Positions 12,719 to 16,995 of a stretch of DNA of 64,000 nt are shown one piece after another. The stretch's first letter is position 1, and the number at the start of each line of letters is the position of its first letter. The position numbers and the translations under genes are program-made. Below the pieces are notes generated by a model. It worked only from the letters and a program-made list of their open reading frames with translations, ran no database searches and was not told the origin of the DNA. This DNA is from Escherichia phage vB_EcoM_RZ: the sequence record MW598459. One strand, 5' to 3'.

Positions 12719-13162
12719 TTAAATTTCAAATTCTTTGCGGAAGTTGGAAGCATAAGACTGAACTGACGCTTTGTTGAATCCAAACTCACGCACAATCATA
12801 TCAATAACAGCTCTGCGAGCAGCACCATTAGACATATTAACAGTTTTGAACATATCATAGCATAAATCTTTGTTGCTCATACCGGAGCGTTTAGGTGCCT
12901 TACGCTCAGCTTTTGGTTCAGCTTTAGGAGTAGGTTTAACTTCTGGGTTAACCTGTCCATCATTCAGACCTTTAAAAATTTTACCTGCCAGAGTTGCCAG
13001 TTTAGCAGCTTCGCCACGAGTGATACCAAATACTGCCGGGTTAAATGAAATACCTTCAGCTGTCAGACGTTTGAAGAACATACGTGCTGCGGATTGTGCT
13101 TCAGCTTCAGAAGAGTTGTTTAATGCCAGTTTAACATACTTAACCAGTTTTGAAGTTTTCAT
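12719..13162 (-). CDS. hypothetical protein, paralog A (shared C-terminal VQSYASNFRK domain)
   Basis: Start at MKTSKLVKYV; C-terminal ~45 aa (NGAARRAVIDMIV..VQSYASNFRK) shared with ORF 13246-13671. Confidence 0.55.
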   Translation of the reverse strand: MKTSKLVKYVKLALNNSSEAEAQSAARMFFKRLTAEGISFNPAVFGITRGEAAKLATLAGKIFKGLNDGQVNPEVKPTPKAEPKAERKAPKRSGMSNKDLCYDMFKTVNMSNGAARRAVIDMIVREFGFNKASVQSYASNFRKEFEI

Positions 13163-13204
13163 TTTATTATCCCGTTTGTTTATTTGGTAACTCAGTATGG
13201 GATA

Positions 13205-13234
13205 ATTATACATTATCCCACCTGGAAGTAAAAC
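13205..13234 (-). promoter_or_regulatory. T4-type early promoter cassette with dyad around -10
   Basis: Minus strand TTTTAC-N17-TATAAT; -10 flanked by GGGATAAT/ATTATCCC; leader TATCCCATACTGAGTTACC. Confidence 0.5.
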
Positions 13235-13245
13235 ACTTTTCTCAA

Positions 13246-13671
13246 TTATTTTTGAGCTTTGCGGAAGTTGGATGCATATGACTGAACAACAGTCTTTTTG
13301 ATATCATGGGTGGTAACCAGAACATCAATCAGAGCGCGACGAGCTGCATTATCATTCATATCAATTTCTGCAAATGCCTGGAAGCAAATGTCACGAGCGT
13401 TACCAGATTTGGACTGGATTTTTTCTTCTTTAACTTCTTCAATTGGGAATTCAATCATTTCAGCTTGGATTAATTCAATGATAGATTCTTTTGACTGTTT
13501 GGTGTTTACCTTCAGTTCAGAATTAAGGGACTTGGCAATGGCAACAATCTGGGTTGAAGTCAGATGGATAAGTGCATCTTCACGAATGCAGATTTCACAT
13601 ACTTCGTCAGCAACCATTTTGTTAGTGATGCGGGTAACAGAGAATGCAGAGGTCAGGGTCAGAAAGTTCAT
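13246..13671 (-). CDS. hypothetical protein, paralog B (shared C-terminal VQSYASNFRK domain)
   Basis: Start at MNFLTLTS with SD GGAG; C-terminal NDNAARRALIDVLV..VQSYASNFRK. Confidence 0.55.
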   Translation of the reverse strand: MNFLTLTSAFSVTRITNKMVADEVCEICIREDALIHLTSTQIVAIAKSLNSELKVNTKQSKESIIELIQAEMIEFPIEEVKEEKIQSKSGNARDICFQAFAEIDMNDNAARRALIDVLVTTHDIKKTVVQSYASNFRKAQK

Positions 13672-13723
13672 TTTATTTCTCCAAAGTTTTGTTTGATTCA
13701 GTGTGTAACTCAGTATGGAATCA

Positions 13724-13752
13724 TTATGCACCCGGTCAATCTGGATGTACAC
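13724..13752 (-). promoter_or_regulatory. T4-type early promoter cassette
   Basis: Minus strand GTGTAC-N18-CATAAT-GATTCCATACTGAGTTACACAC; leader near-identical to the 12677 and 52392 copies. Confidence 0.5.
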
Positions 13753-13812: not shown

Positions 13813-14367
13813 TTAGTTCTTATAAAAGCGGAACGGATTTATATGGAAGGCGAGCATAGCCTTAGGGATGGGTCGGGACAGAAGGCTCTTGAGCTTCCAG
13901 CCACAATAAACACGCAGATAAAAGGTGATTCCACCGACCTTAAGATAAGGAACAGAAGCAAAAACACCCCAGGCATTGTCCGTCCACATAAAGAGCCATC
14001 CGTGATGAGCTTTATCCGGGGAACCAGATTCGACATCAGGATTACCTTTATAATGGAATTCTGAATTGCAATCACGACCGAGCTTGTGGTAAGCAAAATT
14101 GTATGCTTTGTTTCGCCAGAGCCAGGCTACTCGTTGGAAGTAAACACCTAATGGCCATTTTCGGATTTTTGACCAACGTTTGACATGACCCCGGTCACCA
14201 TCAATCGGATTATCATAAGTCATCATCCAATCAAACCCGAACGGAAGTTTACCAGTCTTTTTATTATGGAACGGAACTACAAATGGAGCCAGGATAACGG
14301 CCAGAATCATGGAGATAAAATCCAGCGGAACTAACAGAATCCAACTCAAATATTTTAACAGTTTCAT
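13813..14367 (-). CDS. hypothetical membrane protein
   Basis: Start at MKLLKYLSWILLVPLDFISMILAVILAPFVV (N-terminal TM helix); longer track ORF would run through a terminator. Confidence 0.5.
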   Translation of the reverse strand: MKLLKYLSWILLVPLDFISMILAVILAPFVVPFHNKKTGKLPFGFDWMMTYDNPIDGDRGHVKRWSKIRKWPLGVYFQRVAWLWRNKAYNFAYHKLGRDCNSEFHYKGNPDVESGSPDKAHHGWLFMWTDNAWGVFASVPYLKVGGITFYLRVYCGWKLKSLLSRPIPKAMLAFHINPFRFYKN

Positions 14368-14390
14368 ACGTTTCTCTTTAGTTGATTTAT

Positions 14391-14418
14391 AAAAAAGCCC
14401 CAACCTTTCGGAAGGGGC
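14391..14418 (-). terminator. rho-independent terminator downstream of tRNA region
   Basis: Hairpin GCCCC-loop-GGGGC followed on the minus strand by TTTTTT. Confidence 0.55.
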
Positions 14419-14454
14419 TATACCTTGTCGGGGTTCCACCTGCAAGGCAAGTGT

Positions 14455-14545
14455 TTGTACGAAACGCCGGGATTCGAACCCGGTTATTAAGCAGTTGACG
14501 CTACTCAATATTTTTAAAAGGCCATATCTCGACCATATCCGAACG
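14455..14545 (-). ncRNA. tRNA-like element (canonical T-arm and acceptor pairing, body non-canonical; possible long-arm tRNA, pseudo-tRNA or small stable RNA)
   Basis: Minus strand has CCGGGTTCGAATCCCGG T-arm and 3' CGTTTCG pairing with CGGAACG about 85 nt upstream; no convincing anticodon arm. Confidence 0.3.
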
Positions 14546-14718
14546 TTCCGTCAAAAACGCTACTCGGCTTACGGCAAAGATATTTCCTCGAATCGATAAT
14601 TCGGTGCGCCGTTTCTGCTGTGATATAAGGGGACATCAACAAATCGTAAAGATTTATTAATGTCAGTCCTTAAACAGGGAACATCAGTCCGACGACTTAC
14701 CGGTAGCGACCCGGTTTC

Positions 14719-14958
14719 TCATTCAATTGTAATAGCTAATTTGACTTTAACAACCTTATAATTGGAATCAAGGTCATTGAATTCCATAAAATTTGTTGCT
14801 AGTCTGCGAGTCGGGAAACTTAGATATTTATTATGTTCGGGTGGAGCAGTTAATGCAAACCATGGGACTTGTTTATCATTTTCGTCAAACTCATCAAAGC
14901 TATAAACCAGCTCGTTGCTGGTTATATCCATAACTGCATATGATTCACTAATAACCAT
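14719..14958 (-). CDS. hypothetical small protein within tRNA region
   Basis: Start at MVISESYAV; the longer track ORF would overlap tRNA-Arg. Confidence 0.4.
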   Translation of the reverse strand: MVISESYAVMDITSNELVYSFDEFDENDKQVPWFALTAPPEHNKYLSFPTRRLATNFMEFNDLDSNYKVVKVKLAITIE

Positions 14959-14973
14959 AATATCCTCAGTAAT

Positions 14974-15050
14974 TGGTCGGGGTGGTGGGATTCTAACCCA
15001 CAACCTACGGTTTAGAAGACCGTTGCTCTATACAATTGAGCTACACCCCG
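14974..15050 (-). tRNA. tRNA-Arg (anticodon TCT), CCA encoded
   Basis: Minus strand CGGGGTG acceptor pairs with CACCCCG; anticodon stem-loop ACGGT-CTTCTAA-ACCGT; T-loop GGTTAGAATCC; 3' ACCA. Confidence 0.75.
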
Positions 15051-15127
15051 GGTGGCCCCATCCAGATTTGAACTGGTAACCTTTCCCTTATGAGGGGACT
15101 GCTGCTAACCAATTGAGCTACAGGGCC
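15051..15127 (-). tRNA. tRNA with CAT anticodon (Met or Ile2-type)
   Basis: Minus strand GGCCCTGTAGCTCAATTGGTTAGCAG..CCCCTCATAAGGG..GTTCAAATCTGG..TGGGGCCACC; anticodon loop CTCATAA. Confidence 0.6.
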
Positions 15128-15132
15128 TAAAA

Positions 15133-15399
15133 TTAAATTACAAATCCAGCGGGAGCATTATCATCTTTAATCATATGCTGAATTGTATGATAAGTTAGTT
15201 CTTCTGGTGCAACCAGATAAGCCGCAACGTTAACTAGTGGAATTATTTTTGGTTTAGCGAATGTGCTATCGGCAATTGCCATAAAGGACTCGCCGTCGGT
15301 CTCAACTTCGCCAAATTGACACTCATACGAAATAGAGCAGCGTTTGGTAGTGGTTGTCTTTGTTTTAGGGTCATAAAAAGCTAATTTTAATACTAACAT
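15133..15399 (-). CDS. hypothetical protein
   Basis: 88-aa ORF immediately downstream of tRNAs. Confidence 0.4.
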   Translation of the reverse strand: MLVLKLAFYDPKTKTTTTKRCSISYECQFGEVETDGESFMAIADSTFAKPKIIPLVNVAAYLVAPEELTYHTIQHMIKDDNAPAGFVI

Positions 15400-16162: not shown

Positions 16163-16384
16163 TTATTCAGCACCAACGGCTTTCAAAAGTTTTTTAAGGT
16201 TGACAATACCACGGGCAGAGAAAGTAACCTTACCACCTGTTTCAGATACAGAACCTGTAAGTTTTGCCAATTTATCATTTGGTAACTTTTTAAAATCCTT
16301 CAGTGTACCATCAAAAGTTTTAGATTGAATCGGCAATTCGTCATGCATTTTAGCTTCGTTAATAAATTCTTGATACGTTTTCAT
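16163..16384 (-). CDS. internal-protein-like protein with capsid-targeting sequence
   Basis: N-terminus MKTYQEFINEAK (MKTYQEFI + I-x-E motif); own early promoter. Confidence 0.65.
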   Translation of the reverse strand: MKTYQEFINEAKMHDELPIQSKTFDGTLKDFKKLPNDKLAKLTGSVSETGGKVTFSARGIVNLKKLLKAVGAE

Positions 16385-16441: not shown

Positions 16442-16696
16442 TTATTTTTTAGGGATACGATAGTAACGCATCTCAACATCTTTCTGCTTGTACCACTTTT
16501 TGATAAGGTCTTCAGAACCGCTAATAGTAACGATGTCATAACGACCATCATGCGATACTTCAGCACTTAACTGCATGAAATTGTCCAGTGAACGACGGAA
16601 TTCCTCATTGGAAAAACTGCCACGCGGCGAACCAACATAAGCAAACTCAACTTTTGCATTTGCAGATTCAGTAATAAATTCTTGATAAGTTTTCAT
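16442..16696 (-). CDS. internal-protein-like protein with capsid-targeting sequence
   Basis: Start at MKTYQEFITESA; own early promoter. Confidence 0.65.
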   Translation of the reverse strand: MKTYQEFITESANAKVEFAYVGSPRGSFSNEEFRRSLDNFMQLSAEVSHDGRYDIVTISGSEDLIKKWYKQKDVEMRYYRIPKK

Positions 16697-16722
16697 ATAG
16701 TCTCCAGTAGTTGATGAGATAA

Positions 16723-16752
16723 TCATACTACAGTTATCCCATCGCGTATACT
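16723..16752 (-). promoter_or_regulatory. T4-type early promoter cassette with dyad around -10
   Basis: Minus strand GTATAC-N18-TATGAT; GATGGGATAA/TTATCTCATC inverted repeat; leader CAACTACTGGAG. Confidence 0.55.
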
Positions 16753-16995
16753 TTATTTTAAGTCTTCCAGACGTTTTTTCATCTTGGTGCCGTTCTTAGC
16801 AATTTCACCCGCGTCTGAACAAAGAGCAAGGAGAGCTTTAACTTTACCCTGGTCGCCTTTAAAAGATGATGCATCTACAGAATCGGCAAGTTCTTTGATA
16901 CGTGCAAACAGGCGCTCTGCTTCAGCAAGGGCTTGACCAAGTTTAACTTCCATACCATGGGAAGATTCTGTTATAAATGTTTGATAAGTTTTCAT
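16753..16995 (-). CDS. internal-protein-like protein with capsid-targeting sequence
   Basis: N-terminus MKTYQTFITESS. Confidence 0.65.
   Translation of the reverse strand: MKTYQTFITESSHGMEVKLGQALAEAERLFARIKELADSVDASSFKGDQGKVKALLALCSDAGEIAKNGTKMKKRLEDLK

What the first reader, a model, noticed from the sequence alone, without database searches (positions are those of the whole stretch)
14440..14720. Non-coding stretch beside the tRNA genes with a tRNA-like element lacking a canonical anticodon arm
Downstream of tRNA-Arg(TCT) and the CAT-anticodon tRNA lies about 280 bp without a convincing ORF. On the minus strand, 14455-14545 has a canonical T-arm (CCGGG-TTCGAAT-CCCGG) and a 7-bp acceptor pairing (CGGAACG with CGTTTCG) but an A/T-rich middle (TTTTAAAAATATT) where the anticodon arm should be. 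The rest has nested hairpins (ACGGC..TCGAATCGATAATTCGG..GCCGT). T4 encodes two small stable RNAs in its tRNA cluster; this could be an analog, an atypical long-arm tRNA or a decayed tRNA gene.
Basis: seen in the sequence. Interest (0 to 1): 0.45.

Follow-up and report, generated by a model that had tools for sequence, protein, structure and literature searches.

The report
T4 rnaC/rnaD small stable RNAs
This non-coding stretch holds this phage's copies of two small stable RNAs known from phage T4 since the 1970s (rnaD and the tRNA-like rnaC), so it is real and structured but already known, and its function is still unknown.

Summary
The window comes from a T4-like phage; the closest record is Gaprivervirus CJ20. 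Region 14440-14720 on the minus strand contains the orthologues of T4 rnaD (species 2 RNA, 14603-14722, 88% identical) and T4 rnaC (species 1 RNA, 14458-14596, 137/139 identical). They lie downstream of tRNA-Met(CAT), tRNA-Arg(TCT) and a 79-aa ORF, and a terminator-like hairpin follows them.

In 38 distinct homologues from about ten genera, the 3' strand pairs with the true 5' end of the 139-nt RNA (CGAUUCG). That pairing has one compensatory change and two invariant U.U mismatches.

rnaC is a four-way junction made of the acceptor stem, a long arm I, arm II and the T arm. The hexaloops of arms I and II (UUGACG and CGUCAA) are exact complements in all sequences. They change together to UUGGCG and CGCCAA in Marfavirus-type Klebsiella phages, which suggests a kissing loop.

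There is no anticodon loop. ARAGORN and Rfam give no significant hit.

The RNA most likely matures through the tRNA pathway and acts as a tRNA mimic. Its target is unknown. As a finding it is already known, so interest is low to moderate.

The parts
14603..14722 (-). rnaD homologue (T4 species 2 RNA). The conserved core starts at AGAAACCGGG (14719). It has a 5' hairpin and a long irregular stem closed by GUCGUCG/CGGCG-CAC.
   Evidence: Aligns with T4 rnaD (71053-71171 of NC_000866) at 88.4% identity. In 13 homologues the consensus fold has 34 pairs, 7 of them with compensatory changes. Homology begins at AGAAR whatever lies upstream.
14597..14602 (-). 6-nt spacer GAAUUA between rnaD and rnaC
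   Evidence: In other genera the same kind of spacer (AAUUA, AACAA or AAUAA) separates a tRNA 3' end from rnaC.
14458..14596 (-). rnaC homologue (T4 species 1 RNA), 139 nt, tRNA-like four-way junction
   Evidence: 137/139 identical to T4 rnaC. Covariance model R1 finds this single copy in the window at 153.7 bits.
14589..14595 (-). rnaC acceptor stem, 5' strand CGAUUCG (nt 2-8)
   Evidence: Pairs with 14460-14466. The five Watson-Crick pairs hold in 38/38 sequences, pair 3 switches A-U to G-C, and two U.U mismatches are invariant.
14519..14588 (-). rnaC arm I (nt 9-78), a long irregular hairpin of 'type 1', closed by AGG/CCU
   Evidence: RNAalifold on 13 type-1 sequences. A different 'type 2' arm with the same apical loop occurs in other genera, with 10 of 22 pairs compensatory.
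14549..14554 (-). Apical hexaloop of arm I, UUGACG (nt 43-48)
   Evidence: Exact Watson-Crick complement of loop II in 38/38 sequences. It is UUGGCG where loop II is CGCCAA.
14511..14518 (-). A/U-rich single-stranded linker UUUAAAAA between arm I and arm II
   Evidence: Its length and sequence vary between genera.
14485..14510 (-). rnaC arm II (nt 87-112), a 10-bp stem with hexaloop CGUCAA (14495-14500)
   Evidence: 9 of its 10 pairs show compensatory changes.
14467..14483 (-). rnaC T arm, CCGGG-UUCGAAU-CCCGG (nt 114-130)
   Evidence: 100% paired. The middle pair occurs as G-C, U-A and A-U. It is the only T-loop consensus match in the window.
14460..14466 (-). rnaC acceptor stem, 3' strand CGUUUCG (nt 131-137)
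14456..14459 (-). 3' tail U-ACA in the position of discriminator plus CCA. It reads U-CCA in Marfavirus-type Klebsiella phages.
14421..14449 (-). Trailer hairpin CUUGCCUUG...CAAGG just 3' of rnaC, conserved with T4
14390..14419 (-). Terminator-like hairpin AGCCCC..GGGGCU followed by U6. It probably ends the tRNA/rnaD/rnaC transcription unit.
   Evidence: Fold. The Rfam sub-threshold matches here (NsiR1 and others) hit only the terminator shape. The simple terminator scan missed it because the stem has internal mismatches.
14726..14753 (-). Possible sigma-70-like promoter, TTGTTA-16-TACAAT. It would start transcription near 14719, the first conserved base of rnaD.
   Evidence: 9 of 12 matches; the number of such sites in the region is no higher than in shuffles, so this is weak evidence.
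14719..14958 (-). 79-aa ORF between tRNA-Arg and rnaD. Its stop codon overlaps the rnaD 5' end.
   Evidence: Full-length match to phrog_33509 at E=5e-57. Not homologous to T2L trna.2, which sits in the same position.
14974..15050 (-). tRNA-Arg(TCT)
15051..15127 (-). tRNA with CAT anticodon (Met, or Ile2 if modified with lysidine)

Best explanation
Shown: the stretch encodes, on the minus strand, the orthologues of phage T4 rnaD (species 2 RNA) and rnaC (species 1 RNA). These are two small structured RNAs of the T-even tRNA gene region.

Shown by comparative analysis: rnaC is a tRNA-like four-way junction.
- Its 5' and 3' ends form a 7-position acceptor stem, with five Watson-Crick pairs and two invariant U.U mismatches.
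- The acceptor stem abuts a canonical 5-bp T arm, as in tRNA.
- The D and anticodon arms are replaced by a 70-nt arm I and a 10-bp arm II.
- The hexaloops of those arms (UUGACG and CGUCAA) are perfectly complementary.

Inferred:
- The two loops form a kissing interaction that locks the body of the RNA (probability about 0.7).
- The RNA is made as part of the tRNA transcript. Its 5' end is cut by RNase P and its 3' end is trimmed like a tRNA (about 0.8). This rests on its architecture, on its position 4-6 nt from flanking tRNAs in other genera, and on my recollection of the 1970s-80s T4 literature.
- It accumulates as a stable RNA that cannot decode, because it has no anticodon loop.
- It probably acts as a tRNA mimic that occupies a protein which recognises the acceptor/T-arm half of tRNA. 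Candidates are a host tRNA-targeting nuclease or a tRNA-handling enzyme. Mimicry in general gets about 0.3-0.4; any specific target gets much less.

rnaD is a separate, non-tRNA-like structured RNA. Its 3' end would be released by the same RNase P cut.
For: - Identity: the alignment with T4 is colinear from rnaD through rnaC into the trailer. T4, T2L and RB9 records annotate rnaC and rnaD at the matching positions. Identity to T4 is 98.6% for rnaC and 88.4% for rnaD. About 800 T4-like phage records match.
- Structure: on 38 distinct homologues, 92.2% of cells are paired against 82.0% in shuffles and 34-48% in slid controls. 17 of 36 pairs have compensatory changes, reached by 0/500 shuffles.
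- Kissing loop: 6 of 6 pairs are Watson-Crick in 38/38 sequences. A-U becomes G-C in 9 sequences. In an all-against-all 6-mer control, it is the only pair of windows outside a nested helix that is fully Watson-Crick in all sequences.
- Loop conservation: the loops stay the same although arm I exists in two unrelated sequence types.
- Context: in Karam-, Kagamiyama-, Winkler- and Gelderlandvirus, rnaC lies between two tRNA genes with 4-6 nt spacers.
- 3' tail: it reads U-ACA, and U-CCA in Klebsiella phages.
- Not a tRNA: no ARAGORN or Rfam call.
- Expression in T4: RNAC and RNAD are late RNAs, validated by Northern blot (PMC9697503).
- Host-dependent role: a convergent SNP arose in rnaD in a T4-like phage evolved on a semi-permissive host (PMC12685909).
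- Precedent that phage tRNA genes can counter tRNA-targeting defence: the PARIS preprint (10.1101/2024.01.02.573894, listed; title and abstract only).
Against: - Nothing here shows expression, RNA ends or stability in this particular phage.
- The kissing loop rests on one compensatory event in one clade. The same U-to-C change also fits an alternative pairing of the loop II region with the T-stem/acceptor 3' strand.
- Some lineages (Winklervirus, L029 group) have lost the canonical T-loop sequence. This argues against a partner that reads the T loop itself.
- The encoded 3' end is ACA, not CCA, in most clades. The annotated T4 RNA ends before it, so charging or CCA-dependent interactions are doubtful.
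- Reviews up to 2025 state that the function is unknown. From memory, T4 deletions of the tRNA region are viable on laboratory hosts. The decoy idea has no direct support.
Confidence: 0.9

Rival explanations
1. A decayed tRNA gene: a pseudogene left over in the tRNA cluster that keeps only its T arm.
For: It has a canonical T arm and an acceptor-like stem but no anticodon arm. It sits among tRNA genes. There is a sub-threshold tRNA-Sec match of 16.6 bits.
Against: The whole 139 nt is conserved at 77-99% across about ten genera, with 17 compensatory pairs and invariant loops. It occurs in exactly one copy per genome. In T4 it is an abundant, discrete RNA. A pseudogene would not keep covarying helices outside the tRNA-like part.
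Confidence: 0.01
2. A functional but atypical tRNA with long arms, or an intron-containing tRNA, that is charged and used in translation.
For: It has an acceptor stem plus a T arm. Klebsiella-phage homologues encode U-CCA. It is placed and spaced like a tRNA in polycistronic clusters.
Against: There is no 7-nt anticodon loop. Both candidate loops are 6 nt, invariant and complementary to each other. Most clades encode ACA instead of CCA. There is no G3:U70 or other simple acceptor identity element, and the acceptor stem holds two U.U mismatches. ARAGORN and Rfam tRNA/tmRNA models do not call it.
Confidence: 0.03
3. A cis-acting processing or termination module: the hairpins only punctuate the tRNA transcript (RNase P, E or III entry sites, terminator) and have no trans-acting role.
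For: It lies at the 3' end of the tRNA unit here and in T4, followed by a trailer hairpin and a terminator-like hairpin. In other genera it lies between tRNAs. From memory, species 1 RNA is an in vitro RNase III substrate.
Against: A punctuation element would not need two invariant complementary hexaloops. It would not need an almost invariant 70-nt arm over five genera, or a conserved tRNA-like 3' tail. In T4 the RNAs accumulate as stable species late in infection rather than being degraded as spacers.
Confidence: 0.1
4. Small protein-coding genes: the 33-42 aa ORFs in the stretch, annotated as hypothetical proteins in several related phage records, are the real features.
For: There are ORFs of 33-42 aa on both strands. 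Short CDSs are deposited over the homologous region in CJ20, Marfavirus and Moonvirus records.
Against: The substitutions are compensatory base-pair changes, not codon-wise changes. Arm I is swapped for an unrelated sequence while the RNA structure is kept. The deposited CDSs differ in frame, strand and extent between records. T4, T2L and RB9 curators annotate RNAs here.
Confidence: 0.01

Closest known systems
Phage T4 rnaC (species 1 RNA, T4s001) and its annotated T2L, RB3, RB6 and RB9 orthologues
   Same: 137/139 identical. Same strand and order (tRNA-Arg ... rnaD - 6-nt spacer - rnaC - trailer hairpin). Same predicted fold.
   Different: In this phage a 79-aa ORF lies between tRNA-Arg and rnaD. 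T2L also has an ORF there, but an unrelated one; T4 and RB9 have none. The sequence after the trailer hairpin differs and carries a terminator-like hairpin. The closest deposited genome (CJ20) does not annotate the RNAs.
Phage T4 rnaD (species 2 RNA, T4s002)
   Same: 88% identical. Conserved 5' module (AGAARCCGGGUCGCUACCGGY...) and 3' module (...AUCACAGCAGAAACGGCGCAC), and the same position.
   Different: The central hairpin is variable, and T2-type phages carry a different one. The 3' end is CACCG here against CACCA in T4, so the tRNA-like 'CCA' look of the T4 end is not conserved.
Canonical tRNA
   Same: Acceptor stem directly abutting a 5-bp T stem with a UUCGAAU loop. A four-way junction. 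Embedded in tRNA operons. A 3' tail in the position of NCCA.
   Different: No D arm and no 7-nt anticodon loop. A 70-nt arm I and an 8-10-nt linker. Tandem U.U mismatches in the acceptor stem. ACA instead of CCA. Not called by ARAGORN or RF00005.
tRNA-like domain of tmRNA, and other tRNA mimics (plant-virus 3' tRNA-like structures, bacterial Y-RNA YrlA); this comparison is from general knowledge
   Same: It works like these in one respect: an acceptor/T-arm module grafted on a non-decoding body, which in tmRNA is processed by RNase P.
   Different: No tmRNA call by ARAGORN, no G3:U70, no tag reading frame and no pseudoknot ring. No Rfam hit to tmRNA or YrlA even at E<=10. In YrlA the RNA termini form the Ro-binding stem, not the acceptor stem.

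Membership tests
T4 rnaC (species 1 RNA) | Full-length sequence homology to the T4 rnaC gene | tested here: met
   137/139 identical with no gaps. A covariance model built from 21 homologues scores 153.7 bits.
T4 rnaC (species 1 RNA) | Located in the tRNA gene region, same strand, immediately downstream of rnaD | tested here: met
   tRNA-Met and tRNA-Arg at 14974-15127(-), rnaD at 14603-14722(-), a 6-nt spacer, then rnaC at 14458-14596(-). The order matches T4, T2L and RB9.
T4 rnaC (species 1 RNA) | Conserved secondary structure supported by covariation | tested here: met
   92.2% of cells paired, and 17 pairs with changes on both sides (0/500 shuffles reach this).
T4 rnaC (species 1 RNA) | Accumulates as a discrete stable RNA of about 140 nt, with a 5' end made by RNase P | not testable with these tools
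   For T4 itself there is a Northern blot (PMC9697503). The RNase P dependence is recalled from older literature that the library does not hold.
T4 rnaD (species 2 RNA) | Sequence homology to T4 rnaD, and position between tRNA-Arg and rnaC | tested here: met
   88.4% identity. The alignment of 14 homologues keeps both conserved end modules.
T4 rnaD (species 2 RNA) | Accumulates as a stable RNA of about 120 nt | not testable with these tools
   T4 data only.
tRNA | Cloverleaf with a D arm and an anticodon arm carrying a 7-nt loop | tested here: not met
   ARAGORN finds only the two known tRNAs. RF00005 gives no hit. RF01852 scores 16.6 bits against a gathering score of 47. Both apical loops are 6 nt.
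tRNA | T arm (5 bp plus a UUCRANY loop) stacked on a 7-bp acceptor stem formed by the two termini | tested here: met
   The acceptor stem has 5 Watson-Crick pairs plus 2 invariant U.U mismatches.
tRNA | 3'-terminal NCCA, encoded or added | tested here: inconclusive
   The window encodes U-ACA. Klebsiella-phage homologues encode U-CCA. Post-transcriptional addition cannot be tested here.
tmRNA | tRNA-Ala-like domain with G3:U70 plus a tag-peptide reading frame | tested here: not met
   ARAGORN, which also searches for tmRNA, finds none. Pair 3:70 is A-U or G-C. No Rfam clan CL00001 hit reaches threshold.

The most novel reading that the evidence does not exclude
rnaC is a dedicated tRNA decoy. 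Its kissing-loop-locked body presents a tRNA-like acceptor/T-arm half that the tRNA pathway matures but that cannot be cleaved in an anticodon loop. It would titrate a host tRNA-targeting defence nuclease or a tRNA-handling enzyme, and so set host range. This would fit its conservation across T4-like phages of Enterobacterales and the convergent rnaD mutation seen on a semi-permissive host. It would give a function to RNAs that have had none since the 1970s.
Probability: 0.15. Interest if true: 0.7.

Novelty: already known. Interest (0 to 1): 0.25.

Why it matters
As a genome feature this is a rediscovery. rnaC and rnaD were sequenced in T4, T2 and T6 in the 1970s and are annotated in the T4 reference genome.

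Three practical points follow.

1. Most deposited T4-like genomes, including the closest relative of this window, do not annotate these RNAs. Some place spurious short CDSs or over-extended genes on top of them. Rfam 15 gave no match above threshold here, so no Rfam family appears to cover them, and the covariance model built here could fill that gap.

2. The comparative model gives concrete, cheap experiments for RNAs whose function is still unknown. Its testable elements are the true acceptor stem with tandem U.U, the two interchangeable arm I types, the complementary hexaloops with one compensatory switch, and the ACA versus CCA tail.

3. If the tRNA-mimic idea is right, these RNAs belong to the current topic of phage tRNA genes and tRNA-targeting defence.

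Tried and rejected
- Rfam at gathering thresholds on the whole window, and at E<=10 on 14300-15200. Only the two tRNAs pass. All hits in the stretch are sub-threshold and match the shape of the T arm or the terminator.
- Homology of the 79-aa ORF to T2L trna.2: none.
- PHROGs on seven neighbouring ORFs: all belong to families of unknown function.
- Search for more divergent relatives with three IMG/VR pattern scans and one metagenome scan. These returned only T4-like phages of Enterobacterales plus chance hits in coding DNA, and no new loop variants.
- Covariance-model search of 46 phage loci for second copies: one copy per phage, and the weaker hits are ordinary tRNAs.
- BLAST of rnaD plus rnaC against 5,426 E. 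coli genomes: no match.
- Literature searches for a described function: none found. Miller et al. 2003 and the 1970s-80s primary papers are not held in the library, so statements about RNase P and RNase III processing and about deletion viability come from memory.
- A MotA-box/middle-promoter reading of the T2-type upstream sequence was considered by eye and dropped because the spacing is wrong.
Full report
**What the sequence is**

The 901 bases around the finding match 784 phage records. All listed records are T4-like phages of enterobacteria. The best match is Escherichia phage CJ20, genus Gaprivervirus, at 96.5% identity. ARAGORN and Rfam find two tRNA genes on the minus strand: tRNA-Arg(TCT) at 14974-15050 and a CAT-anticodon tRNA at 15051-15127. 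Neither tool calls anything in 14440-14720.

A sensitive BLAST of 14380-14730 hits 803 records. In T4, T2L, RB9 and a few others, the features under the match are annotated 'rnaC' and 'rnaD'. The T4 reference (NC_000866) annotates rnaC, 'small, stable RNA; species 1 RNA', at 70908-71046. It annotates rnaD, 'species 2 RNA', at 71053-71171, directly downstream of tRNA-Arg. T2L and RB9 have the same layout.

A pairwise alignment with T4 is colinear from the start of rnaD to about 40 nt past rnaC. Mapped to the window, rnaD is 14603-14722 and rnaC is 14458-14596, both on the minus strand. Identity to T4 is 107 of 121 aligned columns (88.4%) for rnaD and 137/139 (98.6%) for rnaC. The finding is therefore the orthologous pair of two RNAs known since the 1970s.

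**Checking the observation**

Several parts of the observation hold.
- The stretch has no credible ORF. Inside it there are only 33-42 aa ORFs. The 231-aa TTG ORF 13813-14508 is an over-extension of a 184-aa gene that starts at ATG 14367 and matches phrog_2143 over its full length.
- The T arm CCGGG-UUCGAAU-CCCGG is at 14467-14483. It is the only GGTTCRANTCC match in the 64 kb.
- The region is much more stably folded than shuffled sequence. The z-score is -6.0 for the whole region, -4.6 for rnaC and -3.7 for rnaD.

In 21 distinct homologues three of its pairs are mismatched in 13, 8 and 4 sequences, and none shows a compensatory change.

They use the spacer GAAUUA, which is AAAUUA in T4 and AAUUA, AACAA or AAUAA elsewhere, so the inner hairpin is not conserved. 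It belongs to a real phage protein family (phrog_33509, E=5e-57). It is unrelated to the trna.2 ORF that sits in the same place in T2L.

**Homologues elsewhere**

I collected rnaC homologues from annotated phage records and from IMG/VR and metagenome pattern scans. The genera represented in the records fetched are:
- Tequatrovirus, and Gaprivervirus (the window and CJ20)
- Karamvirus, Kagamiyamavirus (EcS1) and Winklervirus (Kc304, Virsaitis27)
- Kanagawavirus (Kosakonia 305; the IMG/VR locus L019 is identical to Edwardsiella PEi20 over this region), Gelderlandvirus (CF-SP2) and Moonvirus (NM4.3)
- Marfavirus-type Klebsiella phages

Mosigvirus records also match in BLAST but were not fetched. 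All members found are T4-like phages of Enterobacterales. The other scan hits were chance matches in coding DNA. A covariance model built from 21 sequences (R1) finds exactly one copy in the window (153.7 bits). It finds one copy in each related phage locus, and the weaker hits are ordinary tRNAs.

Outside the T4/T2 group there is no rnaD. There, rnaC lies 4-6 nt after the CCA end of one tRNA and a few nucleotides before the next tRNA. Examples are between tRNA-Phe and tRNA-Trp in EcS1, and between tRNA-Trp and tRNA-Gly in Karamvirus. In Kanagawavirus it stands apart from tRNAs behind a hairpin.

**Structure of rnaC**

Numbering: nt 1 = 14596 and nt 139 = 14458.
- **Acceptor stem.** The 3' strand C131-G137 pairs with C2-G8, the real 5' end of the RNA. 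C-G, G-C, C-G and G-C are invariant. Pair 3 is A-U in the T4 group and G-C elsewhere. Two central U.U mismatches are invariant in 38/38 sequences.
- **T arm.** The T stem follows the acceptor stem with no intervening nucleotide, as in tRNA. It is 100% paired, and its middle pair occurs as G-C, U-A and A-U.
- **Arm II** (nt 87-112). It has 10 pairs, 9 of them with compensatory changes, and a hexaloop CGUCAA.
- **Arm I** (nt 9-78). It is closed by AGG/CCU and comes in two sequence-unrelated types. Type 1 (T4, Gapriver-, Kagamiyama- and Winklervirus, and most Karamvirus records) is almost invariant. Type 2 (Gelderland-, Kanagawa-, Moon- and Marfavirus, and some Karamvirus) is well supported by covariation, with 10 of 22 pairs. 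Both types end in the same apical hexaloop UUGACG on a 5-6-bp stem in which all five tested pairs covary.

Over the whole model, 92.2% of cells are paired against 82.0% in column shuffles and 34-48% when partners are slid by 1-3 columns. 17 of 36 pairs show changes on both sides (0/500 shuffles reach this, and for the first 21 sequences).

**A probable kissing loop**

UUGACG (loop I) is the exact Watson-Crick complement of CGUCAA (loop II). Only two loop combinations occur. UUGACG with CGUCAA appears in 29 distinct sequences. UUGGCG with CGCCAA appears in 9. The 9 comprise the Marfavirus and related Klebsiella phage records plus matching uncultured contigs. That is an A-U to G-C double change.

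An all-against-all control of 6-nt windows in the 21-sequence alignment found three pairs complementary in at least 20 sequences. They are the apical stem of arm I, this loop pair, and a G.U-containing alternative between the loop II region and the T-stem/acceptor 3' strand. The loop pair is the only one that is Watson-Crick in all sequences.

The double change is a single event in one clade, so the covariation evidence is thin. The weight comes from invariance plus perfect complementarity across two different arm I scaffolds. I put the loop-loop interaction at about 0.7. I cannot tell whether it is intramolecular or mediates dimerisation. I found no mention of it in the searchable literature, but the primary 1970s papers are not held.

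**3' end**

After the acceptor stem every clade reads U-ACA-A, except the Klebsiella phages, which read U-CCA-A. With U138 as discriminator, this is a tRNA-like NCCA tail in which C74 is usually A. The T4 annotation ends the RNA at ...GUA, so the mature end and any CCA addition remain open.

**rnaD**

Homology among 14 distinct sequences starts sharply at AGAARCCGGG (window 14719), whatever lies upstream, whether a tRNA 3' end or an ORF. The consensus fold has three parts (34 pairs, 7 compensatory):
- a 5' hairpin whose closing pair covaries A-U to G-C,
- a long irregular stem closed by GUCGUCG/CGGCG-CAC,
- a variable central hairpin, which is replaced in T2-type phages.

It has no T arm, and its terminal helix is not at its 5' end, so it is not tRNA-like. 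A sigma-70-like site (TTGTTA-16-TACAAT, 14753-14726) would place a transcription start at about 14719. Such sites are no more frequent here than in shuffles, so this is only a lead.

**Downstream of rnaC**

A hairpin at 14421-14449 is conserved with T4. A GC-rich hairpin with a U6 run follows at 14390-14419. It looks like the terminator of the unit.

**How it most likely works**

The following steps are shown: identity with rnaC and rnaD, the tRNA-like upper half, the absence of an anticodon loop, and the embedding in tRNA clusters.

The following steps are inferred. The RNA is transcribed with the tRNAs. RNase P cuts at the base of the acceptor stem, which also releases the 3' end of rnaD or of the upstream tRNA. 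Exonucleases then trim the 3' trailer, which leaves a compact, nuclease-resistant RNA.

Published data for T4 show both RNAs accumulating late, confirmed by Northern blot (PMC9697503). Reviews state that their roles are unknown (PMC3014915). A 2025 evolution experiment found a single convergent SNP, in rnaD, in all lines of a T4-like phage adapting to a semi-permissive host (PMC12685909). This hints at a host-dependent role.

The RNA keeps the half of tRNA that processing enzymes and many tRNA-binding proteins recognise, and it lacks the half that decodes and that anticodon nucleases cut. My best guess is therefore a tRNA mimic or decoy, at about 0.3-0.4 for mimicry in general and about 0.15 for an anti-defence decoy.

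Several facts count against any simple version of this idea:
- some lineages have lost the T-loop sequence,
- the tail is ACA rather than CCA,
- from memory, tRNA-region deletions of T4 grow on laboratory strains.

**Comparison with known families, and verdict**

Membership in the rnaC and rnaD families is met on sequence, synteny and structure. Expression cannot be tested here. It is not a tRNA, tmRNA or any Rfam family. It works like other tRNA mimics only in the general sense of carrying an acceptor/T-arm module.

The feature is real, non-coding and structured, and it is already known. The added value here is a covariation-backed secondary structure, the candidate kissing loop, the two arm I types, the ACA/CCA tail, and the observation that most deposited genomes leave these RNAs unannotated or cover them with spurious CDSs.

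Noticed in passing
window 13813-14508 (-); MT533174 CDS CJ20_207: The longest ORF here starts at a TTG and runs 141 nt upstream of the real ATG (14367), across the terminator and into rnaC. The same over-extended 696-nt CDS is deposited in the closest phage genome. From ATG 14367 the 184-aa product matches phrog_2143 over its full length.
   Followed up: partly
L009 1191-1295, L043 591-695, L138 333-506, L139 375-485, L141 291-428, L143 291-428: Several Marfavirus, Moonvirus and Citrobacter phage records carry 34-57 aa 'hypothetical protein' CDSs that overlap their rnaC homologue. These are probably annotation artefacts.
   Followed up: no
window 16163-16384, 16442-16726, 16753-16995 (-): Three tandem small ORFs share the N-terminal motif MKTYQEFI(N/T)E. 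This looks like a small paralogous gene family upstream of the tRNA region.
   Followed up: no
window 12719-13213 and 13246-13752 (-): These adjacent ORFs are paralogues. Each hits both phrog_18416 and phrog_9997, and they share a C-terminal ...VQSYASNFRK motif.
   Followed up: no
window 15051-15127 (-): The CAT-anticodon tRNA scores only 48.5 bits with several non-canonical pairs. One related record (PQ341120) annotates it as trnI/tRNA-Ile, so it may be a lysidine-dependent tRNA-Ile2 rather than tRNA-Met.
   Followed up: no
L005 1507-1646, L008 1205-1342, L029 5960-6099, L035, L040: In Winklervirus and one uncultured lineage, the rnaC T loop is UGCAUUC, UGCAUGC or a 6-nt UGCAUC instead of UUCGAAU, while the T stem is kept. 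The canonical T-loop sequence is therefore dispensable in some lineages.
   Followed up: partly
window 14421-14449 (-): A hairpin (CUUGCCUUG...CAAGG) immediately 3' of rnaC is conserved between this phage and T4 but is not part of the annotated RNA. It could be a processing or stability element of the precursor.
   Followed up: no
alignment A3 columns 99-104 and 133-138 (window about 14493-14498 and 14463-14468): The loop II region (AGCGUC) can also pair, with G.U pairs, with GGCGUU at the T-stem/acceptor boundary in all 21 sequences, and with full Watson-Crick pairs in the Klebsiella-phage clade. This is a possible alternative conformer that competes with the tRNA-like fold.
   Followed up: partly
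window 14560-14568 and 14499-14507 (-): The 9-mer GAGUAGCGU occurs twice in type-1 rnaC, once in arm I and once in arm II. The invariant rnaD hairpin loop GUCGCUA is complementary to the UAGCG part of this repeat. I saw this by eye only, and its significance is unknown.
   Followed up: no
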